From Catajapyx aquilonaris (taxonomy: Eukaryota), in the NCBI GenBank assembly GCA_000934665.2, contig JYFJ02000469.1, positions 62,001 to 126,000 of the forward strand: DNA of 64,000 nt, given 5' to 3'. The position numbers and the translations under genes are program-made. Positions 42,201 through 63,999 of the stretch are shown here, one piece after another (position 1 is the first letter of the stretch; each line of letters starts with the position of its first letter). The notes beneath the pieces were generated by a model. It worked only from the letters and a program-made list of their open reading frames with translations, ran no database searches and had not been told where the DNA came from.

Positions 42201-45200
42201 ATTACCATGCTCCATTTGTGGCCAGCTCTGGTGGCCATAACTGGAGCACTCTAAGCACCACTTGTGGCCACAAATGACCAAAGTCACAATTTGATGAAAA
42301 ATATGGCAAACCTAGATAGCCATGATAAATTATGAGAATGCTGATTACAATCAACAATAATCTGATGTTATTTTATCCATGAATTGAAAGTGTTATGATA
42401 AAATACTATATTACAGGTTGGGTTGGATTTGGATTTCTAAGGGGCATTCCAATTTATCCCGTCTGATATTCTGACGGTAATAATAATAAAGGAGCAATTG
42501 ATTGGGCACCTTTTCCACTCATTGTTCCTGCTAGGAAGTGACATTTCTGTCTTGGAGAATCCAGCTTGTGTATGAGGGTCATTCAAATGAAAACGAGCCA
42601 AGGTCATAGGCATAGCAATTGTCAAATGGGATTCTCATGGCATCTTCTACCCAAAACTAGGGTGGTACTGCTGTAGCATTGCAGTGTTATGGCACACTGA
42701 GTATTCAGGATCCAGCCCCCGCCCCATCAAAAACACAGTCCAGTCAGACATGCTGGCAACTTTGAGAAGCGAGCAGTAAGTTAATTAGTTTTTAATCCAC
42801 GGAAGGTGTCAGGAGTGCAAAAATTCACCATAAGAGTACTGTACGGTGTACAAAAGCTGTATGGCTTTGTCACAAGTTAGAGCCTGGAGTAAGTGGTTTG
42901 CTTGCCCTGGCCTGGAATCACCAGCCAACGATGGCTGCCCCTCTTGGAACCCCTTACTCCAGGCTGTAACACGTGATCAAATCAAAATCTCCTAGTGCAT
43001 CATAACACACTACAGCAGTACCACCTTCGTTTTGTGTGGAAGATGCCATGAGAAACCCAATCTGACGTTTGCTATGAACCTTGGATTGGTTTCATTTAAA
43101 TGATCCTTACACAATACCAATGAAACAGCATTTGCAAAAGTCCAAAGAAGTCACAAATTAGTGTCTGAAAGCAGTGGCAGTAGCACCATTGTTGATAAAC
43201 TCATGTGACAAATGTCACAAGAGGTGATGATGGCATTAATTTTGTCCTTTTGGGAATAAATTAACAGATTTTGGGGGAAAATACGCAGGTGGCCAGAACC
43301 GGTGCGTGGCATGGCCAGAACTGGTGCAGGGGTGGCCAGAACTGGTACTATCAGTCCACCAAGAATTGGATATAGCGGCAGCGCATGAACTACAGTTATG
43401 AGCACTTCCGTGGGGAGAAGTCAATGGAGAAGTGCTCGTAGACTGTAGTTCGTGCGCTGCCACTACAACAATTCTTGGTGGACTGATAGTGCATTTTGCC
43501 ATTTTTTTTATGGAAGCTTTTTTTTTGGAAATTAAAATGTTCAGATATAATTATTGTGTATCAGTAGATTACCAGTTAAATTGCTCTCACCATCAATACA
43601 TTGATCTACCTGCACGAACTTTCAATTCAAAGTTATGAATTTTCAAAGACAGAATTTCTCTAAACGTGGCCACAACCGGTACAACCACCCTATCCCAAGT
43701 AAAACTTCAGTTCCAATTTTTCTCATTCAACTTTATTGCAATAAATGAATTATTATCTACTAATAAATTAAGATCACAGTATATCCCCTCTCCCTCTACA
43801 TTAAAATACTGCCTTACAATTTATATTATTTTACCTAAGGCATTAAAGCATTGGAATGGAAGGAATAAGTTAATGGTTCATTTGCATCTTGTACAGTTAC
43901 AGTAGTAATTGCAAAGAGCAGTCATGGTGAACATCTCACATGCCATAGGATTAGTATTCAATGCACAACAATTTCAGTCACAGTGCTCGCTAAATATATC
44001 AGGCACAATTGGTGATACAGCATAACTTCTAGTCTTGTTATAAATGCTCTGAAAACCTTGCTGCATGAAACACCTCTAAATACTTGAACAAGGAGACTGG
44101 TGAATGACGATAAAAAATGGCTGCTAAAAATTATTTTGAATGTTTTATGCATGCAATTTCATCAGTCCACTTTAATATTACAAATTCTGCAAGCATCAAC
44201 TATTCAAAGTTCACTTTCATTGAGTATCAAAAGACACAATACAAAATTCTGGCTGATATGTCAAAATACCTGGCAGTTTATCATTAACCGTGAGCTCTGT
44301 AAGGCTGGTTTCAGTCTACTGATATATTACACAAACTCTCCAAAAACCAGAACAATAGGATTCTTGGGCAGAATTTAGGAAGACATATCAAATATTTGGT
44401 CATAGAGAGAAGGAATCACAAGTCTCTCCTGTAAACTATTTTACTACATATTCTGAATAAAATTTATAAAATTTTAACTTGAAAATGCAGTCATGCAGAG
44501 ATCCCACTTTAGGAAAGCATTGCTCAATTATTGCCATGCCAATGGTGCAGAGGGCAACCTATGACTAGAATGTATAAAAAAAAGGAACCTTATTCCCTGA
44601 CAAAAGGAAAGAACATGCGGCAGGTGAATTTTTCTCATGACTGCTGTCACCGAGGCACCACTTGGAAGTATGCTGAAACACACTCTACAAGTGTCCTACA
44701 AGGCAAACATTCACCTGCTCCTGGTGCCTAAGCTGGACCTCCACTTTTTTCCGGGCGAAAACCTCTTGCATCTCGGCCTCCCTACGACCAAAGCGGTCTT
44801 CCAGGTGGCACCGTAGACGTCTGATGGCTGCAGTGTGCACTTCCTCCATTTCCGCCTGAAGAGAATTCAACTTGGCCAGATGAGCATTCTCCAAGTGCAA
44901 TTGGATCGAGGACACTGCATCTTCACGTTCCAGGTTGAAGGAAGCTTCCCTGGATGATGACTCAACCTGTCATGGGAAAGAAAAAGTAGATCATTGGTTT
45001 GTCATGTAGAGCACTACTTCTAGTCATTACAGTTTACTTTCAATAGAAAAATCAAATGTCTAAAATCAAATTCTGTCATAATTTCTACCAAAATGATGAG
45101 TAGGCTAAACATGTCCAGTCTACCTGAACGGGTGGATCATTCAGTTATATGACACATAACAGAGCGAATCTGACTTGGTGTTACAAAAGTTGGATATAAC

Positions 45201-47444
45201 AAGATTACCTTCTGCTGTCGGAGGTCAACTTCACATCGCTTCAGAGCTAGCTCCTTGTTCTTGAGCTCAGCCTGAAGAGCAGCCCTCTGTCTCACCAACT
45301 CCTCCTCTCTCTCCCTGAGACGTGCCTCAATCTCTGCCAAACTTCTCTCCAGCTCGCTCTTCTGCCGCCCCAACTCCACCTCCATCGTCTCCCTCTCCAT
45401 CAGTTGATGTTCGAGGGCCTGCATCTTCAGATCTGCCTCATGAAGCCTCTGCCTCTCAGCACCCAGCTTTTCCTCTAGCTCTGCCCTCTCTTGAGCCTTC
45501 TGACTTAACACTTCCTTTTGTTGGCGAAGAACCTCCTCCATGGCCCCCTTGTCACCAATCAGGTCTGCAAACATGGCTTGACGTTCCTGCTGCAGTTCTA
45601 ACTCTTTAAGGAGTTCATCGCGCTGGCGGCGCAGTTCAGAGTCCCCATGACTTCTTGCCTGTTCAAGTGCCTGGCGCAGAGCAAGGTTCTCTTCGCGCAG
45701 TTGTTCAATTACCTCCATCAACTCTTCCTTCAGTGACACTTTTGTGGATGGGACATCTTCCCTCCGCTTCAGGTGTGCCAGAGCCAAATCTTTCTTAGCC
45801 TGGGTAAGCTCCTGATTCAGGCGCTTCTGCTCTTCCCAGGCCCGGTTCAGTTGTGTTCGTAGCTGCCCTTGCTCTCGTCTGATGGCTTCTCCCTGACGCT
45901 CATAAGCCTCGCATGCTACTTTCAGCTGGTTAGCCTTCTGTTCCACCAGGCGACGACCATCTTCTTCAACAACCAGCTTCTCCTTCAACAAGCGCACCTC
46001 CTGTTGGCGGGCAGATAGTTCTACAATTGCATCATCAGATTCAAGTTCGGCTAACTGAGCCTCAAAGGTTGACTGTTGCTGAGTTAATAGTGACTTAATC
46101 TGCAAATTGCTTTCTAGCAGAGATTTGTTGTGCAACTCCAGTTCTTGGATGTGAAGACACATGTTGTCACTACGGGCCTCAACTTCCGACCTGTCATGCT
46201 GCGAAGCAGTCAGCTGTGACCTTTCTGACCTCAGTGCGTCACACTCTTTAGCCAACATGACCTTTTCCTCATCTGATGCCTTCAAGGACACTTCAAGCTC
46301 TTTGTTGCGTACTTCAAGGGCATCCAGTTCTGCCTGCACAGCTACCCGTTCACGCTCAAGACTTTCAGCACGTTCCATCCAGACGTAAGCACTAAACAAG
46401 GCTGGCTCTCCCTCAATACTGTGAGCCCGTTTGCATCGTTTTGGTGAGCTAATCCCTTGCTCAGCTAAATCAGCCTCATCCTCAAACTCAACAGTTACAA
46501 CTGCTGGATCCTGCCGTGCCTTCCGCAAGACACTGATTTTAGAATGCAGGTGTGCTATCTCGTTCTCCATATCTGCCTTCTCTGAGACTGCCTCATGCTT
46601 CTCCATCTCCCGCCTAGTTTCCAGGGCAGACAACTGCTCCCGAAGAAGCTGGCACTCTCTCACAGTTGTGTCCAAGGCTTTAGCTTTGTCAGCTGTTTCT
46701 AGAGTAAACCTCTGGACTGACTGCTCCATGGCTATGGCATGATTCTTAAGGGAAAGATATTCAGCAGGGCTAACCCCAGTGGCCCACTGCTGTCCCTGAA
46801 GGAGCTCGGAGGCTGCCTGCATCTGCCGGCGAAGAAGGTCCACTTCTTGGGTCAACTCCTCCGCTTGCATTTGCTGACTTGACTTTTCTTCCAGGCTCTT
46901 CTTCAGGGACTGGGACAGCTGGGCAATTAAGGCATCACGCTGGACTAATGCATCTTGAAACTCATGCATCTGTAAGGAAAAATTTTAATCACCTTAATGA
47001 TAACGTGGCATAGAAATGACAGGAGTCAATTGGGATAAAAAAAATATTTTAATATCCTTTCCAATCAGCACCTAGTTTCAAAATGCAACTTTTAAACTGG
47101 GCCATCATTATTCAATGCATCATTAAGAACTATTCAGTACAATCCAAAGACTGGAGCACTTCCATTAGTAATTACTAAACATTAATTATGAAATAAATAG
47201 AAATGGTAAGAAAATAACTTATATAGAACTTTCATTTCGAATTATTGTACTGTCATTCTACACAGTGCAGCATAATAAAAATATTTACATAGAAATAATT
47301 CAGAGAAATAATTCATAATAATTGTGCAACATTTTAGTGTCCACTGTTCTGATATTGCCTTGACCCTAATCATGCAAAAAAAACACGCTAATCATTCCTT
47401 ATAAATTTCTCTATGGATTTATCTCCTGCATCCGTATTGCACCA

Positions 47445-51454: not shown

Positions 51455-54400
51455 ATGGCGGGTGCAGTGATGCTGGAACGCTCGCGTCCTCATTCCTCAT
51501 CGGAGAACGACCCACCCATCGCCCATCTCAACTCTATTCGTGAGTAGTCCAAAGTAGAGTGGAATAGGGGACATGGGCCGCACAGGGGGGCGGCCTAGTG
51601 TTCGATCCGCGTTGCCGGACATTTCCGAGCCCTACTTTTTTTTTTCTTTCCTCTCTTTCCAATGGAGGTGGGGAGGGGGAGGCCCTGGCGTGAGTAAGCC
51701 GAAATTGAAGGGTGAAAATGGTGGGGTGATGCCGCATAAAGTTGCAAGTCACGCTTTTTGGGCCTCTTCGCAAGGGGGGCGGTTGGCCCACGGGTGTGGC
51801 CTCCATCGAATGGGGAAGAGGGAGAGAATGGGAATGACACATTGAAATTTTGCTCAAGGTTGGGATGAAAAAAAGAGTGGGAAGAATGACCTTTCATCGG
51901 AGGGGGGGATGGCGATAAAGGACGTTCGAATAGGCTTGGAACATAGTCGATTAAAATTTATGAGAAATCATAAGTATTGGTGTTGTCATGCGTGGATGTT
52001 TTAAATATCATTGTACTATTGCAGCGTTCACCATGGGGAATCGCATTTGTCTCGGGGATATCCCTACATAAAAATTGTTATATATTAATGATTCGTAATT
52101 TCATATCATTATCGCTATTACTCACGGAATCCCGGTTGAGAAACACTGCTCTGTTGAGTTGCAAGTGACAGGCCATACTTGGCCTTAACAAATGTACCGG
52201 TAGTACATGTGTGGATGTAAAATGTAACTGCACATTTGAATAGCCATTGCAAAGTGCTGCTGTGGTTGTGTGTGAAATAAGTGGAATTGAAGTGTGCCAG
52301 GAGAAAAATTTGCCAAGTCATTGAAAGTTGCTAGTCATGCGCATCATTGGGGGGGTGTAAATTTAACCTGTGGTGTGAACAGTAGCTACTGAACTAGTGC
52401 AGGACTAACGCAGAGCAGTGGAATGCAAATTCTAGATTGTCAGTTTCATGAAGGTAGCCACAGAGGTAGGTGCTAAAATTATAGGGTGCACAATGCACAC
52501 GCTTTATAATAATTATCATTTTCCTACAGGTGAATACATTCTTGATGGATTCGCTTTTATCCATTTGGCCTAAATGACATTTGTTTCTGTTTGGCAGTGG
52601 CGCCTCCACAGTCTCCAATAGATGAAGATGACGATGCCATCAGAAACAAGGAACAAGATATTCTGCAGCAGGGAGAGGCCTACAAGAAAGAAGGAAAGGC
52701 TAAAGGTGAGCCACCCCTGTTATCCTTTTGGCTTTCAAAGGAAAAAAGTAACTGTGCAAAAGTTACCTACATTACGCAGACATTCGGTGCTTTTATAATA
52801 AGAATCTGTATTGACGCTATTGCTGTTAGTTTTCTGTGGCAGCATTGCAAGTGTGAAAAATTCCACAAGAACATCACCACTGCTATTAATCGCGATGAAA
52901 TTTCTTGTTGTAAGGTAGCTATAAGTTTTGATAAGAGATAGTTCTACTAATGCAAAGCTGTAGGCATGATATGCATGCAAAGTACTGATCCATATCATGC
53001 CAGTGGCTACTGGCAATGGATTGATATTGTTTGCCTTTGATAGGAAAGTTTTATTAATATTTGCTTTAGCTTAGCAATCACATAAATTTGGTTGTGGTGA
53101 AAATAACCTTCATGCTTCAAGGATGCACTTGGCATTGTGCCTTAGTGGAGTAACTTTTAGGGCAAATGCCAAATATAGTCCTGTGTCATTTTATTGCTGA
53201 ACTTGCGGGAGACGCCATTTCTCTAATCCTCTTTAAAAATGTGAAGGTTATCATTAATGAGAAGAATACAAAAGTTGGTGCTGTCACTGGAAGTTGGCGC
53301 ACAATGTATTACATACACTCAATTGATTTCTCTGCTTTTGGGACAAGTCTGATTGAAGATTAGGGGTGAAAATATTTTTCCTGTTCAAAATGAAGTGTCT
53401 CTGTCTTGAGTTTGGACAGAGTGGGATTCAGGCACAAGTCATGGTTGGGAATTTGGAAAAGAGGACCACTTTTTGTGAAGATTTTAATTGCAGAATGATT
53501 AGGTGTTGTAAGATTGGTTCAATGATAGCGGTTGACGCAAAATATATTATTAGAGCCATTCACATGATAAAAGTTTTATGATTGGATCATGTTGCAATTG
53601 AGTTTTTAGTTTTAAATGGTTGATGAGTCAACAATTATTCATGACAGTGAACAAAATCGTGATGCTGTCCTTTACCATCGTTGTAGAACTGGGGGAGCTG
53701 ATAAAGCAAACACGGCCATTCCTGAACAGCATTAGCAAGGCAAAGGCAGCCAAGCTGGTGCGTGCTCTTGTGGACATGTTCTTGGACCTGGAGGCTGGGA
53801 TTGGCATTGAAGTACAGCTGTGCCAGGAGTGCATCGAGTGGGCCAAAGCAGAGAAGCGTACCTTCTTGCGCCAGTCCCTTGAAGGCCGCCTCATTGCACT
53901 CTACTTTGACACCAAACACTACGGACAGGCCCTCACTCTCGGATCAGCCTTGCTGAAGGAGCTGAAGAAGCTTGACGACAAAAACCTGCTGGTGGAAGTG
54001 CAACTATTGGAGAGCAAGACTTACCACGCCCTACAGAACTTGCCCAAGGCTCGGGCTGCCCTCACTTCTGCACGCACTACGGCCAATGCCATCTACTGCC
54101 CACCAAAACTGCAAGCTGCACTTGACTTGCAATCTGGGGTTCTGCATGCTGCTGACGAGAGGGACTTCAAGACCGCATACTCATACTTCTATGAGGCGTT
54201 TGAGGGCTATGACAGTGTGGAGAGCCCAAAGGCTCTCACTGCCTTGAAATACATGCTGCTGTCAAAAATAATGCTGAACATGTGAGTCATTCTTCCCATC
54301 AATTTTCTAAAGGGAATTGGGAAATGGATATATGAAATTTTTTGGAATTATTTTCAATGGAAATGAAAACTAGAGCATGCCTTTCTCACCCAGACTTGCA

Positions 54401-55816
54401 GGACTAAAGTAATGTTTTTGCCAACAGGCCTGAAGATGTGCAGCATATCATCAGCGGAAAATTGGCACTAAAGTATGCTGGGAGGGACATTGAAGCGATG
54501 AAGGCAGTTGCACAGTCCAGTCACAAGAGGTCGCTGGCAGACTTCAACAAGGTCAGTACATTTGTGACAAGTTGCATTGGGGCAGTTTAGAAAATGTTGG
54601 ATTGTTTTCAGGCGGTGTCTGCCTACAAAGTTGAACTGGAGAACGACCCTATTGTGAAGGCTCACCTGCGCACTCTGTATGACAACATGCAGGAGCAGAA
54701 CCTCTGCCGCATCATTGAGCCTTACTCTAGAGTACAGGCAAGTAGTGCATTTCATCAACTCCCGAAAGCTGAGAAATGCTAGTGAACTCATTTTCCACTC
54801 ATATGCAAGTAGAACCATGCCCAGTGGGAAACTGGACTTTACTGTGGTTATGATTATTATACTTGTAAGGTCTCATCCATCCCGAAAGACTCGGACAATG
54901 TAATGCAATGAACCTTGATGCGTTTTTTTTTTTAATGAACCGGTGACAAGAAGTGGCATTTTCATCGTAAAAATTTGTACCTCCCCACTTGTTTAATAGT
55001 TGCCTTTTGCACATAGCCACTAGGCTCACATTTTTATCAGTGTTTAGTAAAAGTGATGTGAAGCACAAGTCAAGGCAAGAGCCACTTGTTCCAGCCAATA
55101 AGGCTTTGCAAGTGTCAATAATCGCACATTTCAGGATCAGACAAAATGCCAAGCAAGGGGTAGGGCATGACATTTGCACTGCAACCAATGCTTTAAAGAA
55201 GCAAACATGATATTTGTCTTCTAGGACTGCCCTTTGCAGACAGGTGCAATTATGTGCATTACAAAACGAAGCATCACATAATATTATCTGGAGAGCCAAA
55301 ATCCTTAATACCAACTAGGACAATATTTTGTCTTCTAATAATGCAAGGAACAGACGATCAAGAGCAAATGTGAAAACTGTTCCAAAGATCTTGTAGGTGT
55401 CAGCTGACTTGACAAACACACTGTGTAGGGCTTGTTAAAATTATGAATCTTTCCGTACCAAAACTCTCCTGTGCCTTACATTTTGCAATTGTGCTTGCTT
55501 ACACACTGGAAAAGATTTAGAAGTGACCATCATGATTATGGAGAATGCCTTGTGCATATGATAATGTATTGCACCATGTTCACAGGTGGCTCACATTGCA
55601 ACGTGCATCAACCTCCCGAAGGATCAGGTGGAAAAGAAGCTGTCCCAAATGATTCTGGACAAGAAGTTCCACGGGATTCTGGACCAGGGGGAAGGTGTCC
55701 TCATCGTGTTTGAGGACAAACCAGTGGACAAGACTTATGAGGCTGCCCTTGAGACCATCCAGAACATGGGGAAGGTGGTGGACACCCTTTACCAAAAAGT
55801 GAAGAAGCTGACGTAA
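51455..55816 (+). CDS. PSMD11: 26S proteasome non-ATPase regulatory subunit 11 (Rpn6), 422 aa; join(51455..51539,52598..52705,53687..54281,54428..54551,54612..54737,55586..55816)
   Basis: Recognisable Rpn6 sequence throughout ([67 protein letters not shown]...KKLT*). The exons sum to 1269 nt with phases consistent. Intron 5 has a GC donor. Confidence 0.95.
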
Positions 55817-56996
55817 CGTGCAATTTTCCCCTCCCTGCCCTCCTCTGATCCTCTGTAAACCAGTTTATCTCACTATTTTGGTTCATTATTTCTGCCCTTT
55901 AAATCCCAACATCCTGTGATGGTTTAAAAGCAGTGTATCAATTTGGCAGACCTGTCCAAACGGACAATAATTATGCACCATGCAACTGTAACTACCAAGT
56001 TAGATAAAAAAAAAGAGAGGACAAGCTAATTATCCTTGTTTTGGGTACCTCACTTATGTACAATACAAATTGAATCCAGTTATTTTTTTTTGGCTGTATC
56101 TGTGTATTTTGTGGTTTAATTGAAATCTGGGAGGCCAATTTTAAAAGCAGCTCAAGTGCCCGCCATGTGAGGAAAAGGAGCCTTTTTTTGTGCAAGAAAT
56201 TGGCCTTTCCTAGTGTTCTCTTAACACTCGTGACTTCTGAATGTTTGGTTTATTTCTTGTGTCAATATTTATGTATTTTTTTGGGTTTTTTTGATTAATT
56301 TAGGACTAAAAATTTGAGAGCATTGCCTTCCCCACAAGAATTTGAATTTTTGTAATTATTTATCAATTGGTAAGACCTTCCCTTCTACGCATTTCCAACT
56401 TGTAAAGAAATCTCAGCCAGTGTTTATTAGGCTGTAAAATCTCTTAGGCCATAACAACCTTCTGGTTTTCTTAAATTTTTTTTTGCTGATATCATGCATC
56501 AGGGTAAGGCGTAAAGATCTTTGCTGTGGCGCAGTGAGGCCGAGAGAGAACAAAGCAGAGTTTGTAGACTCCGATTTTTGGTTGGTCGGGTCGTGACTGC
56601 GGTTGAAAGTCTTGTAATTTCCAGTATTTACAATAAAACCAGCCTCGTTTGTTGATATGTTGTTGTCCTTATTTGCGGTCCTTTCCAGAAAAGATAAAAC
56701 TGCTTTTGCACAATGTTTCAGTGCAAAACCGTCTTAACGTGAGAAAGTTCATGGTCATAATTCACGTCGAGCAAATAAAAGTGCTGTAGTAAAGTTCGTG
56801 CACAAATTGTGCGAGTTCAGTCTTTTCTTTATTGTACTGTATGGCATCACATGATACACAGCCTTATTCCTCTCCGTATAATGTAATAAATTATCAAAAA
56901 AATTGATCAAAAATACTCTGAATAACATCTGATTCCTGTTATATAATCCAATTATCATTATGACTTTCACCTTCTGCGAGTTTCTTGCTAAACAAA

Positions 56997-59900
56997 TTAC
57001 AACCCTAAGCGTTTCAGACGCAGCCGGGTGCATTCCTCCACCGCAGGGTTGATGGAGAGCCGGACCCGGAAGAGGGCTTGCACTGGACACTTGCAGAGAG
57101 GGCAAGCGGACAGCTCCAAGCCACACCTCATCCCGAATCGGTGTGCGCAAGGCTGGAGTATCACACGCAGGTCCTCCTTCTTGCACACTGAGCATTTGTT
57201 CTCCTCTTCCTTGACTGCAACAGAATACGCAAGTTAAGCCACATTCATTATATGGCAGTGAAAACATGAACTATCATTCGCTTTCATCGCATACTGACTG
57301 GAGAAAGGGAATGATTGCACACGTTCATTACGGTGATATATGCGACTTACACTTACTACTTTTCGGACTGGTTTCAGTCGAAGATGGAGCATCCCCAGGA
57401 GTCTCCATCGACTGGCTGCTGAAATGGAAACGTAATATTAGGCCTGTAATGTTATAAAACAATAGGCTGACTCACCTGGCGTCATCCAGTTTCTCATTAT
57501 CTCCAGCCGCTTGCTCGTCAGCAATCACCTCACCTTCAGCCTCCTGATCTACTACCAGCTCTGTTGCCTCGCTCAGCTCCTCTGCAGCATCCACTTCCTC
57601 CGCCAGTTCTACTGCCAGTTCTTTTGCCTCGGCCAGATCCTTTTCTGCAGCCTCAACTTCCTCCCAATCTACCATGAGCAATGCCTTGGCCAGCTGCTCT
57701 GTAGCCTCAACATCCTCCCAATCTACCATGAGTATTGCCTTGGCCAGCTGCTCAGCAGCCTCAACTTCCTCTCGATCGACTGGAAGCGCTTTTGCCTCGA
57801 CCAGCTCCTCTGCAGTCTCCACTTCCTTTGCCAGTTCTTTTGCCTCGGCCAGCTCCTTTTCTGCAGCCTCACCTTCCTCCCGATCTACCATGAGCTTTGC
57901 CTCGGCTAGCTCCTCTGCAGCCTCCACTTCCTCCTGATCTACCGTTGGCTTTGCCTCGGCCAGCTCCTTCTGTGCAGCCTCCACTTCCTCCTGATCTACT
58001 GTGAGCTTTGCCTCGGCCAGCTGCTCTGCATTCTCCACTTCCTCCCGATCTACTGCCATATCTTTAACCTCAGCCAGCTCCTTCTGTGCAGCCTCCACTT
58101 CCTCCTGATCTACTGTGAGCTTTGCCTGGGCCAACTCCTCCTGTGCAGCCTCAACTTCCTCCCGATCTACCATGAGCTTTGCCTTGGCCAGCTCCTCTGC
58201 AGCCNNNCCGATCTACCATGAGCTTTATCTCGGCCAGCTCCTTCTCTGCAGCCTCCGCTTCCTCCTGAACTACTGCCAGCTCTTTTGCTTCAGCCAGCCT
58301 CTTCTCTGCAGCCTCCACTTCCTCCCGATCTACCATGAGCTTTATCTCGGCCAGCTCCTTCTCTGCAGCCTCCACTTCCTCCCGTTCCTCTTCATTCCAC
58401 AGCATCTCCGCCAGGGTAGCCGCGCAATCAAACATTCTTCTCTCCTCCTCCATCCTCTTCCTCACCACCTTTCTGACCAGATCCCGCTTGAACCCCATTC
58501 CTGCAACCTTCTTCACCATGTCTGACCTCAGCCACACCTCCAGGCCCACATCTGGCATTTTATACCTCCCTCGCACATCCTTCACAAACTGCGTACCTTG
58601 AATCATTGCGACAAAGGGGCAACGAAAGTAAAAGTAGGCATGATCCTTCCAGGGATTGTCCAATTCGTTCCAGTTGCGAAGACCGCCTCCACACCAGAAG
58701 CACTTCACGTGGTCGCCCAGCCGAGTGTAGAAGAACCCAGCTGCAGCTAGGGCTCTTGGTTTCTGAACCCTTTTCAGGGGCCAGTCACGAAAGGTGTCCA
58801 GACGGGACAGAATGTGGGTATAGCAGACAAAGCGAGGCTCCATGTGCTCTGGGGTTCTCACTACTGGAGGAGAAACATTGCTCCGGTATGGATAAACATC
58901 ATGAGTAACCTTCGCTGGAAGAGGGCAAATAGGCAAGTGTGAATTTTGAACAATTGAAAGCAATGGTAGGTACAAGCTCTTCAAAACCACTGCAGTTCCT
59001 TCCATAAGCTCACCTTTCTCCTCGGGTGTTTGCGGGTCAAGGGGTTGCACATGCTCATGCAGAAACTTCCGTTCAAATTCTGGATCCACGAGGTTGAAAA
59101 GCAGTGCGTCCCCATCCTTCAAGCCGTAACTCTTCAAGGTTTTCTTCATGTCCCTCAGCCGGATGGTGTTGTGAGTCAAATAAAAGTGTGAGGCTGGAAT
59201 GAGCGACTCCGCCTCAACATAAGTCATTAGCGTTTCGAGATCTAATCCCTCATTGACTTCCAGCGTGAATGAGATGTATCTCAGGTTGGTAATCAAGATC
59301 TTCATCAACGGTTTTTCTGCAAACGAAAAGGAAAATATTCTTTAAAGAAAACAGTGACAAAGAACCCGTACACATAAAGTACATTTTTGACATGCTCTCT
59401 TGTCCTCCATCTGGAAAATATGGATGGAATTTTCGTCCCACTGCTAGTTACTGCTAAATTAACAGTACCAAGTGTTGACAATGGTACTGTTACATTGATT
59501 ACTTGATACTAGTGTACGATGGACTTCAGTCTTGGTGTATGAAGGACTTCATAAGTGACTAACCCCTCGATACGTCTACAGTCATACTGAATCATAAATT
59601 ATGGGAATGTCTCTTTATTTTTGCCATCACCTGTTCCAGGGCCCAGACGTCCCGATTCAAACTGAAGCTCGTCTTCCTCCTCCTCCGAATAATCCCTGTT
59701 GCCGCACTCCCCGGTGACAAACGGGCACTTGGGAGCAGCCATCCTATGAGTCTCCATTGGGTCCTGCCCTTTGTCCCAGTCCCAGATGACATTGGAGCAA
59801 AAAGCGCATCTCACAAAGTCCTTCTGCTTCAAGTAAAAGAACCCTGCCCTGGCCAGTTCCTCAATTTCCATGTAGTCGTTAGGCCACCCTTCATACGTGC

Positions 59901-60451
59901 TGAGTCTTGTACACTCGTTCTTCAGCGGGTCGTACAGGGTCACCCACTTGCGGTGCTTGTCATGGGACATGTCGCAATCGGGCTGGCCACGACCAGGCGT
60001 ACACCTCTTAAGCACAGGCTTGTAAGGTTGTGACACTGTGTGAGGTTTTTCTTCTTCATCCTCTTCGTCCACTTCGTCCACTTCGTCCGGTCTTACTGAA
60101 GGCCAGCAGGGTATGCCGCTGCTCCTTGCAGTTTCCGCCCGCAGTTGAGACAGCATGTATGAAATTCGCATGGCCCCGTCATGCACATTGTAGGCCTCTT
60201 CATGCACATTGCGGGCCCCATCTAGGAGATCAGCCACACTGAGCCATTCCGGTCTTACGCACTCAGGAACAAGGAAGGTAGGTACTGGGGACACAGGCAC
60301 AAAGAAGCAAGGTCCTAGGAGCTCAGGATTGAACTCCATCCCTATGGAGAAGCAATTAATTAATTACAGGCCCCCCAAGTACTTTTGATGGTGATTATTT
60401 CTAAACACAAATGGTGCAAATCCTGAGCCTGTGATGGACAGTACCTTCCAT
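56997..60451 (-). CDS. Inhibitor-of-apoptosis (BIRC) family protein: BIR-UBL(DDI1-like)-BIR-UBA-acidic repeats-RING-like; exons (minus) 60451-60445, 60341-59631, 59316-59014, 58914-57476, 57418-57357, 57214-56997
   Basis: BIR1: RLSTYEGWP..LARAGFFY..VRCAFC..H..CPFV. BIR2: RLDTFRDWP..LAAAGFFY..VKCFWC..H..CPFV. UBA with the MGF motif; C-terminal CSVC..PCAH..C..CPLC. GT-AG introns with consistent phases. The frame cannot be followed across the NNN at 58205-58207. Confidence 0.85.
57510..58385 (-). repeat. Coding tandem repeat, ~60-66 nt units (VDREEVEAAEKELAEAKLM-like), about 13-14 copies
   Basis: Repeated gcagcctc(c/a)acttcctcc...gatctac... units on the plus strand; contains an NNN assembly gap at 58205-58207. 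Confidence 0.9.
59427..59520. mobile_element. Third copy of the palindromic MITE family, in IAP intron 2
   Basis: gaattttcgtcccactgctagttactgctaa...cagtacca...tggtactg; the right end is decayed. Confidence 0.65.

Positions 60452-62924: not shown

Positions 62925-63999
<1,075 letters not shown>

What the first reader, a model, noticed from the sequence alone, without database searches (positions are those of the whole stretch)
59014..59316. IAP with a DDI1/DDI2-type ubiquitin-like domain inserted between its two BIR domains (candidate IAP-proteasome shuttle)
Seen: exon 3 of the IAP encodes MKILITNLRYISFTLEVNEGLDLETLMTYVEAESLIPASHFYLTHNTIRLRDMKKTLKSYGLKDGDALLF as its own phase-1/phase-1 symmetric exon between BIR1 and BIR2. 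Known: the F-x-L-x-V, EAES-x-(I/V)P and L-x-SYGLKDGD motifs recall the N-terminal UBL of DDI1/DDI2. Canonical IAPs combine BIR, UBA, CARD, RING or UBC domains, and I know of none with a UBL. Inference: exon shuffling gave a protein with UBL plus UBA (the Rad23/Dsk2/Ddi1 shuttle layout) and BIR substrate-binding modules. It could deliver caspases or IBM-bearing proteins directly to the proteasome.
Basis: partly seen in the sequence, partly recalled or inferred. Interest (0 to 1): 0.85.

Follow-up and report, generated by a model that had tools for sequence, protein, structure and literature searches.

The report
IAP gene with DDI-like UBL exon
An animal cell-death-inhibitor (IAP) gene carries, between its two BIR domains, a separate exon for a ubiquitin-like domain most similar to that of the DDI1/DDI2 proteins; no IAP survey searched lists this layout, but no RNA data could show that the exon is used.

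Summary
Window 59014-59316 (- strand) is a 303-nt open exon with phase 1 on both sides. It has a strong acceptor and donor and lies between a BIR1 exon and a BIR2 exon. Its peptide passes Pfam's ubiquitin threshold. Its best solved relatives are the UBLs of DDI2 and of a mouse protein recalled as Ddi1. It folds as a beta-grasp (pLDDT 88). In 1.84 billion representative proteins its relatives are DDI N-termini and poly-UBL arrays. None of the 47 hits scanned has a BIR. The gene continues with BIR2, a UBA-like segment, at least 14 acidic 19-residue repeats and a C-terminal RING that lacks one zinc ligand. Three IAP surveys and their held supplements list no UBL. BIRC6, however, has an unrelated cryptic UBL. 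No RNA run could be listed and no orthologue was found, so exon inclusion is inferred only. The proteasome-delivery function is inference from DDI2 biochemistry. Verdict: probably a real, lineage-restricted new IAP architecture made by exon shuffling, of moderate interest, with untested function.

The parts
60445..60451 (-). Possible first coding bases (ATG GAA G | gtactg) of an upstream exon 1. Two reverse CCAAT (ATTGG) motifs lie about 100-160 nt further upstream.
   Evidence: Read directly. Joining it to exon 2 keeps the frame. This part is speculative.
59631..60341 (-). Exon 2: N-terminal region with an acidic DEVD-repeat stretch, then BIR1 (59716-59907). It ends in phase 1 at CAG|gtgatg.
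   Evidence: Pfam BIR E 2.3e-18, residues 145-208. The C-x2-C-x16-H-x6-C ligands are intact (read).
59014..59316 (-). Exon 3, the finding: a 303-nt symmetric phase 1-1 exon. It encodes a DDI-type ubiquitin-like domain (core 59090-59305) plus a 26-residue tail with a predicted helix.
58915..59013 (-). Intron 3: 99 nt, bounded by gtgagc...ttccag, in frame and free of stops. UBL and BIR2 therefore share one 396-codon open frame (58151-59341) whether or not it is spliced.
57476..58914 (-). Exon 4: BIR2 (58610-58804), UBA-like segment (about 58385-58567) and an acidic tandem-repeat array (57-nt period = 19 residues; 57564-58384). An NNN assembly gap at 58205-58207 shifts the apparent frame. The exon ends ...CAG|gtgagt in phase 2.
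57351..57418 (-). Predicted 68-nt mini-exon 5 (Ser/Thr/Pro-rich). It restores phase 1 for the RING exon.
   Evidence: Read (cag|CAGCC ... AAGT|gtaagt). The phases fit. No other evidence.
56997..57214 (-). Last exon: RING finger (57075-57206) and stop TAA 56997-56999. An AATAAA signal lies about 165 nt downstream (56828-56833).
   Evidence: Pfam zf-C3HC4_3 30.6 bits against a cut-off of 27. The 5th zinc ligand is missing and there is an 18-residue C-terminal extension compared with P0104 and P0105.

Best explanation
What it is. The locus is one IAP gene of an unnamed animal; the best UBL hit and the one named IAP hit are molluscan. Its product reads BIR1 - DDI-type UBL - BIR2 - UBA-like - acidic 19-residue repeats - RING(-like).

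Origin (inferred). The UBL was captured as a symmetric phase 1-1 exon from the first coding exon of a DDI1/2-type gene. The initiator Met of DDI proteins aligns with the Met near the start of the exon.

Mechanism (inferred, not shown). The BIRs bind clients such as caspases or IBM proteins. The RING, if still active, together with the UBA handles ubiquitin chains. The in-cis DDI-type UBL gives the same polypeptide a handle for the 26S proteasome and/or ubiquitin conjugates, the two partners reported for the DDI2 UBL. Captured clients, or the IAP itself, would thereby be brought to degradation.

Odds. The architecture alone is about 0.7 likely. The mechanism, given the architecture, is about 0.5.
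For: Domain identity:
- PF00240 above its cut-off, and both BIRs strong.
- The best PDB sequence hits are the DDI2 UBL and 1v5o, about 10^5 better than ubiquitin or Rad23.
- AF2 gives pLDDT 88.1 with a beta-grasp topology. The Foldseek top hit is 1v5o, followed by ubiquitin and ISG15.
- Of 47 library hits scanned, 14 carry the DDI hallmarks HDD and/or Asp_protease.

Gene structure:
- Consensus acceptor and donor on both sides of the exon, matching phases and a 101-codon open frame.
- UBL and BIR2 lie in one 396-codon ORF.
- A complete downstream model with phase-consistent exons, a RING, a stop codon and AATAAA.
- Exon 3 GC is 46.9%, against 36.9% and 42.4% in the flanking introns.

Origin:
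- Residue 4 (Met) aligns with residue 1 of 25 of the 29 DDI-type sequences in A1; the other 4 have residues ahead of that Met (P0004 38, P0018 9). It also aligns with residue 1 of the full-length DDI proteins P0057 and P0078.
- No HDD or protease sequence lies in the window.
- A bivalve DDI-like protein with five tandem UBL units shows that this unit duplicates as a module.

Constraint:
- The UBL is 41% identical on average to 29 DDI UBLs, against 57% among them. It still keeps 11 of the 14 nearly invariant residues (my reading) and an unbroken frame.

Function, by analogy:
- The DDI2 UBL binds ubiquitin weakly (PMC4962041, passages).
Against: - No transcript evidence of any kind. No RNA run could be listed.
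- No orthologue or paralogue with the same exon was found. The protein libraries hold nothing 50% or more identical to the UBL (highest 49%, P0018).
- The two nearest IAPs found, P0104 and P0105, lack a UBL.
- Skipping exon 3 would keep the reading frame, so it could be a cassette exon.
- Exon 3 has a lower GC content than the other exons (46.9% against 52-58%).
- The RING lacks its 5th zinc ligand and has a C-terminal extension, so E3 activity is doubtful.
- DDI-type UBLs have a polar residue where ubiquitin has Ile44. Here it is Thr, by the alignment. Their measured affinities for ubiquitin are weak.
- The UBL is internal, unlike in known shuttle factors.
Confidence: 0.4

Rival explanations
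1. The architecture is the same and real, but the UBL is not a proteasome handle. It acts inside the protein or complex. It might bind the IAP's own UBA or RING/E2~Ub surface to switch ligase activity or dimerisation, as the UBLs of Parkin or UHRF1 do (recalled). Or it might simply act as a rigid spacer between BIR1 and BIR2.
For: - UBL and UBA lie in one chain.
- The full-length DDI2 spectra showed that its UBL is not independent of the rest of the protein (PMC4962041 passage).
- The Ile44-equivalent is polar (alignment).
- The IAP UBL sits on a long branch (41% against 57% identity), which suggests changed constraints after capture.
Against: The DDI2 UBL did not bind its own UIM. No data here bear on contacts.
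Confidence: 0.25
2. Exon 3 is not a constitutive part of the mRNA. It would be a rarely used cassette exon or an exon-like DDI fragment lying in the BIR1-BIR2 intron. The main product would then be an ordinary BIR-BIR-UBA-RING IAP.
For: - Skipping keeps the frame (303 nt, phase 1-1).
- The nearest IAPs, P0104 (BIR - about 420-residue linker - BIR - UBA - RING) and P0105, have no UBL.
- GC of exon 3 is lower than that of the other exons.
Against: - The frame is intact for 101 codons despite about 59% divergence from DDI UBLs.
- Fold-defining residues are retained, and the fold is predicted with confidence.
- The polypyrimidine-AG acceptor and the AAG|GTGAGC donor are strong.
- The frame continues into BIR2 even through intron 3.
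Confidence: 0.2
3. There are two transcription units: a short BIR1-only gene, and a second gene that starts at the retained DDI initiator Met in exon 3. The second would give an N-terminal-UBL - BIR - UBA - RING protein, laid out like Parkin.
For: - The Met at residue 4 of the exon peptide aligns with the start Met of DDI proteins.
- Reading on from exon 2 into intron 2 meets a stop after 10 codons, so a BIR1-only product is possible.
Against: - A consensus acceptor lies 9 nt upstream of that Met.
- Intron 2 is only 314 nt, and I noticed no CCAAT-type motifs there, unlike the region upstream of exon 1 (read by eye only).
- The phases match exactly across exons 2, 3 and 4.
Confidence: 0.08
4. 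Assembly artefact: the UBL exon was placed in the IAP gene by a mis-join.
For: The gene contains an NNN gap at 58205-58207 inside a collapsed-looking tandem array.
Against: The gap is about 800 nt away from the exon. The UBL lies in the same uninterrupted 396-codon frame as BIR2 and 314 nt from the BIR1 exon, with no N between them.
Confidence: 0.03

Closest known systems
RING-type IAPs of the XIAP / cIAP1 / DIAP1 kind
   Same: - Two zinc-intact BIRs.
- BIR2 is closest to Drosophila 'Apoptosis 1 inhibitor' 1jd4 (1.8e-25) and to cIAP1 3t6p (1.7e-24).
- BIR1 is closest to BIRC2 7qgj and to 1sdz.
- A UBA-like segment directly follows the last BIR, aligned with the cIAP1 UBA position (not significant on its own).
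- The RING lies in the last exon.
   Different: - A DDI-type UBL lies between the BIRs.
- A long acidic 19-residue repeat array lies between the UBA and the RING.
- The RING lacks one zinc ligand and has an 18-residue tail.
- No CARD.
UBL of DDI1/DDI2 (PDB 2n7d; 1v5o, which I recall as mouse Ddi1)
   Same: It gives the best sequence and fold matches. The order of secondary-structure elements matches that described for the hDdi2 UBL. The start Met is retained.
   Different: No HDD, no retroviral-type protease and no UIM. The position is internal. It is more diverged than DDI UBLs are from one another.
Multi-UBL DDI-like protein of the freshwater mussel Potamilus streckersoni (P0003 / P0107)
   Same: It is the best library hit (4.7e-22; 37-41% identity to four of its five UBL units and 32% to the first). 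It shows that the DDI UBL unit is copied as a module in a mollusc.
   Different: Its UBLs stay in a DDI frame (HDD + Asp_protease). It has no BIR.
BIRC6 / BRUCE / Apollon
   Same: It is an IAP that contains a UBL (PMC10827748, passages).
   Different: That UBL is inserted in an armadillo repeat of a giant UBC-type IAP. It shapes the dimer and may bind UBA6. No relation to the DDI-type UBL here was seen, and the locus has no UBC domain.
UBL-bearing RING-family E3 ligases (Parkin, HOIL-1L, UHRF1) and UBL-UBA shuttle factors (Rad23, Dsk2, Ddi1). Properties recalled, not tested.
   Same: A UBL is combined with an E3 module and/or a UBA in one chain.
   Different: In those proteins the UBL is N-terminal. 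None has BIR domains. Their UBLs are not DDI-type, apart from Ddi1 itself.

Membership tests
IAP (BIR-containing proteins) | At least one BIR domain with C-x2-C-x16-H-x6-C zinc ligands | tested here: met
   Two Pfam BIR hits, 2.3e-18 and 3.1e-20. The ligand spacing is intact in both (read).
RING-type IAP E3 ligases | C-terminal C3HC4 RING with eight zinc ligands ending close to the C-terminus | tested here: inconclusive
   zf-C3HC4_3 scores 30.6 bits against a cut-off of 27. The Cys four residues after the His is missing, one residue is deleted, and 18 extra C-terminal residues are present compared with P0104 and P0105.
UBA-containing IAPs (cIAP/XIAP/DIAP2 type) | UBA three-helix domain after the last BIR | tested here: inconclusive
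   DUF1421 (UBA-like) scores 24.6 bits against a cut-off of 22.8. UBA_BIRC2-3 scores only 14.9 against 27.2. The alignment to the cIAP1 UBA has E 0.83. The single-sequence fold was uninformative (pLDDT 34.8).
Ubiquitin-like (beta-grasp) domains, Pfam PF00240 | Sequence match above the curated threshold and a beta-grasp fold | tested here: met
   27.4 bits against a cut-off of 25.4. AF2 pLDDT 88.1 with beta-beta-alpha-beta-beta order. At least 500 Foldseek matches at E<=1e-3; all 46 rows listed are ubiquitin-fold proteins.
DDI1/DDI2 family | UBL together with an HDD helical domain and a retroviral-type aspartyl protease | tested here: not met
   tblastn with the full-length DDI proteins P0057, P0078 and P0003 matches only their UBL parts. 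No HDD or protease lies anywhere in the 64-kb window. Only the UBL is DDI-like.
UBL-UBA proteasome shuttle factors (Rad23/Dsk2/Ddi1) | N-terminal UBL that binds proteasome receptors, plus a UBA that binds polyubiquitin | not testable with these tools
   The UBL is internal, so the position criterion is not met. Binding cannot be tested here.
Constitutive coding exon of this gene | Spliced reads joining 59631|59316 and 59014|58914 | not testable with these tools
   No RNA run could be listed for the locus. No genome is held.

The most novel reading that the evidence does not exclude
A self-contained 'capture and deliver' IAP. The BIRs hold caspases or IBM proteins, and a DDI-derived UBL in the same chain docks the complex on the 26S proteasome or on ubiquitin conjugates. 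With a weakened RING, the protein could act mainly as a BIR-specific shuttle receptor rather than as a ligase. That would be a way of silencing caspases not described for any IAP in the literature searched.
Probability: 0.2. Interest if true: 0.7.

Novelty: new variant of a known kind. Interest (0 to 1): 0.45.

Why it matters
IAPs are the main brakes on caspases, and they have expanded and been reshuffled strongly in molluscs. A survey of 2,843 IAPs found 121 architectures. [quoted passage not shown] Neither its text nor its held supplement lists a ubiquitin-like entry.

A DDI-type UBL placed between two BIRs would be a clean example of exon shuffling linking the cell-death and proteasome-delivery toolkits. 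It would also give a natural construct for testing what an in-cis UBL does to an IAP.

Its weight is limited. It is a single locus, there is no expression or orthologue evidence, and UBL-bearing E3 ligases are already known.

Tried and rejected
- RNA evidence: the look-up of sequencing runs listed no RNA holder.
- Whole genome: none is held. The host DDI gene and IAP paralogues could not be searched.
- Word-index protein searches:
  - UBL exon, longer proteins: 61 candidates, none at E<=1e-3.
  - BIR2-UBA: crowded out by the acidic repeats, only a NAIP hit.
  - BIR2-UBA restricted to residues 1-172: 2 IAPs, P0104 and P0105, both without a UBL.
- Metagenome scan with the UBL: one locus, L001. 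It is a bacterial contig matched through a chance 8-residue word and was discarded.
- ESM Atlas with UBL-BIR2-UBA: no usable hit.
- Earlier findings of this scan: nothing.
- Complex prediction, UBA-like segment against the UBL: no verdict. The tool did not use the alignment. This counts neither for nor against binding.
- AF2 of BIR2-UBA without an alignment: pLDDT 34.8, uninformative.
- The tblastn extension of DDI P0057 into intron 3 is a weak, low-complexity match. I rejected it as evidence that intron 3 is ancestral coding sequence.
- Repeats around the exon: none found, so there is no sign of a transposon carrier.
- Papers: searches found no report of a BIR-UBL-BIR protein. Only BIRC6 papers pair a BIR with a UBL.

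Full report
**What is there.** The window is animal DNA with introns. The gene lies on the minus strand, and I read its parts as follows.
- Exon 2 (60341-59631) encodes about 140 N-terminal residues and BIR1. Pfam BIR scores 2.3e-18.
- A CAG|gtgatg donor is followed by a 314-nt intron and a pyrimidine-rich ...tttgcag| acceptor.
- Exon 3 (59316-59014) is 303 nt and ends AAG|gtgagc.
- A 99-nt intron follows, and exon 4 begins after ...cttccag|.
- Exon 4 encodes BIR2 (3.1e-20) and a UBA-like segment. For the latter, DUF1421 is above its cut-off and UBA_BIRC2-3 is weak.
- From the ATG at 60339, exon 2 has 709 coding nt, so both introns flanking exon 3 are phase 1.
- The 99-nt intron is in frame and stop-free. 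UBL and BIR2 therefore share one 396-codon open frame, 58151-59341.

**The rest of the gene.**
- After the UBA-like segment, exon 4 runs into a 57-nt (19-residue) acidic tandem array of at least 14 copies, 57564-58384.
- A three-N gap at 58205-58207 changes the apparent frame. The same repeat motif continues in the frame that opens after the gap, so I read this as an assembly gap, not a gene break.
- Exon 4 ends CAG|gtgagt at 57476.
- A 68-nt mini-exon (57418-57351) and a last exon (57214-56997) fit in phase.
- The last exon encodes a RING. zf-C3HC4_3 scores 30.6 bits against a cut-off of 27. It is followed by TAA and, about 165 nt further on, AATAAA.
- Against the RINGs of the two nearest IAPs, this RING lacks the cysteine four residues after the histidine. 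It also has a one-residue deletion there and 18 extra C-terminal residues. Ligase activity is therefore uncertain.

**Identity of the exon-3 domain.**
- Pfam 'ubiquitin' scores 2.8e-6, 27.4 bits against a cut-off of 25.4.
- Against all PDB sequences, the two best hits are the DDI2 UBL 2n7d (1.8e-6) and 1v5o (9.7e-6; a mouse UBL that I recall as Ddi1). Ubiquitin variants follow at 0.2-1 and Rad23 at 1.2.
- A HMMER pass over 1.84 billion representatives gave 100 proteins at E<=1e-3.
- I scanned 47 of these 100 with Pfam: all those of 150 residues or more, and the shorter ones whose match starts after residue 20.
  - 14 of 47 carry Ddi2_HDD and/or the DDI aspartyl protease.
  - 18 are arrays with several to twenty ubiquitin-family stretches.
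  - 1 is an OAS-UBL protein.
  - The remaining 14 show ubiquitin-fold families only.
  - 0 of 47 has a BIR.
- The 53 hits not scanned are at most 138 residues long, with the UBL starting within their first 12 residues. They have no room for a BIR.
- With an alignment of 29 such UBLs, AlphaFold2 gives pLDDT 88.1 and strands and helix in beta-grasp order, plus an extra helix in the tail. The order matches that described for the hDdi2 UBL (PMC4962041, passage).
- Foldseek ranks 1v5o first (2.4e-7, TM 0.69), then ubiquitin and ISG15.

**Origin.**
- The Met at residue 4 of the exon peptide aligns with residue 1 of DDI proteins.
- Nothing else of a DDI gene is in the window.
- The best library hit, P0003, is a DDI-like protein of the freshwater mussel Potamilus streckersoni. 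It has five tandem UBL units ahead of HDD and protease. The DDI UBL unit is thus duplicated as a module in at least one mollusc.
- The IAP's UBL is 32-41% identical to those units and up to 45% identical to single DDI UBLs, so no donor can be named.
- It is a long branch: mean identity to 29 DDI UBLs is 41.0%, against 56.7% among them.
- By my reading, it keeps 11 of the 14 nearly invariant positions, and its frame is unbroken.
- I take this as an old capture kept under selection. Without the host's own DDI sequence, that is an inference.

**Is the architecture known?**
- The nearest IAPs reachable were P0104 and P0105.
  - P0104 is unnamed. It reads BIR - about 420-residue linker - BIR - UBA - RING and is 52% identical in BIR2.
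  - P0105 is an uncharacterised protein of the gastropod Babylonia areolata.
  - Neither has a UBL.
- Three IAP surveys never use 'ubiquitin-like' or 'UBL' in their text:
  - PMC13159474, passages and section 8 read;
  - PMC8917759, passages read;
  - PMC7831173, passages read.
- Their held supplements have no IAP entry with IPR000626, IPR029071, PF00240 or UBQ. The figures, including the 121-architecture chart, are not held and could not be checked.
- Full-text searches 12, 41 and 48 pair a BIR with a UBL only for BIRC6. Its cryptic UBL sits in an armadillo repeat (PMC10827748, passages). 'No IAP has a UBL' is therefore not strictly true, but a DDI-type UBL between two BIRs was not found in print or in the libraries searched.

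**What could not be shown.**
- No RNA run could be listed and no genome is held. Inclusion of exon 3 rests on splice signals, phase, open frame, composition (GC 46.9% against 36.9% and 42.4% in the flanking introns) and retained fold.
- Skipping would also keep the frame.
- The exon's GC is below that of the other exons (52-58%).
- The retained Met allows an internal-start model.
- These rivals together get about 0.3.

**Mechanism.**
- Shown: the domain set and its order.
- Inferred: BIR2 resembles the caspase/IBM-binding BIRs of DIAP1 and cIAP1.
[quoted passage not shown] Affinities for free ubiquitin are weak (PMC4962041).
- The most likely role of the inserted UBL is therefore an in-cis handle that brings the IAP and its BIR-bound clients to the proteasome or to ubiquitylated assemblies.
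- The main rival is an intramolecular regulatory role.
- A complex prediction of UBL with the UBA-like segment gave no verdict and counts for nothing.

**Verdict.** This is probably a real, lineage-restricted new variant of the RING-type IAP architecture. Interest is moderate (0.45) until expression and conservation are shown.

Noticed in passing
window 60058-60087 (- strand), exon 2: A 9-nt tandem repeat encodes an acidic stretch with two overlapping DEVD motifs about 50 residues upstream of BIR1. DEVD is the classic caspase-3/7 recognition motif (recalled). It could be a caspase cleavage or decoy site in the IAP itself.
   Followed up: no
window 57075-57206 (- strand): The RING of this IAP lacks the 5th zinc ligand and has a one-residue deletion compared with two related IAPs. 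It also carries an 18-residue C-terminal extension. It may be a weakened or inactive ligase domain.
   Followed up: partly
window 57564-58384 (- strand), with NNN at 58205-58207: At least 14 copies of a 19-residue Glu/Ala/Lys-rich repeat lie between the UBA-like segment and the RING. This is probably a long single helix or coiled coil. The three-N gap inside it shifts the apparent frame, so the copy number is unreliable.
   Followed up: partly
window 53602-55816 (+ strand): The downstream neighbour is the proteasome lid subunit RPN6/PSMD11 (Pfam RPN6_N, PCI, RPN6_C_helix). It lies tail to tail with the IAP, about 1.2 kb from the IAP's stop codon. This is probably coincidence, but notable beside a UBL-bearing IAP.
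   Followed up: no
window 45140-46984 (- strand): A single 615-codon open frame encodes a Glu/Leu/Gln/Arg-rich sequence that looks like a coiled coil. It has no Pfam match at E<=1e-4. It is probably a large exon of a long coiled-coil protein.
   Followed up: no
window 63462-63689 (- strand): An exon of an ARF-family small GTPase (Pfam Arf 9.3e-15) lies upstream of the IAP.
   Followed up: no
P0003 / P0107 (Potamilus streckersoni): A bivalve DDI-like protein has five tandem DDI-type UBL units ahead of HDD and the aspartyl protease. This is an unusual multi-UBL form of DDI that I did not find discussed in the DDI papers read.
   Followed up: partly
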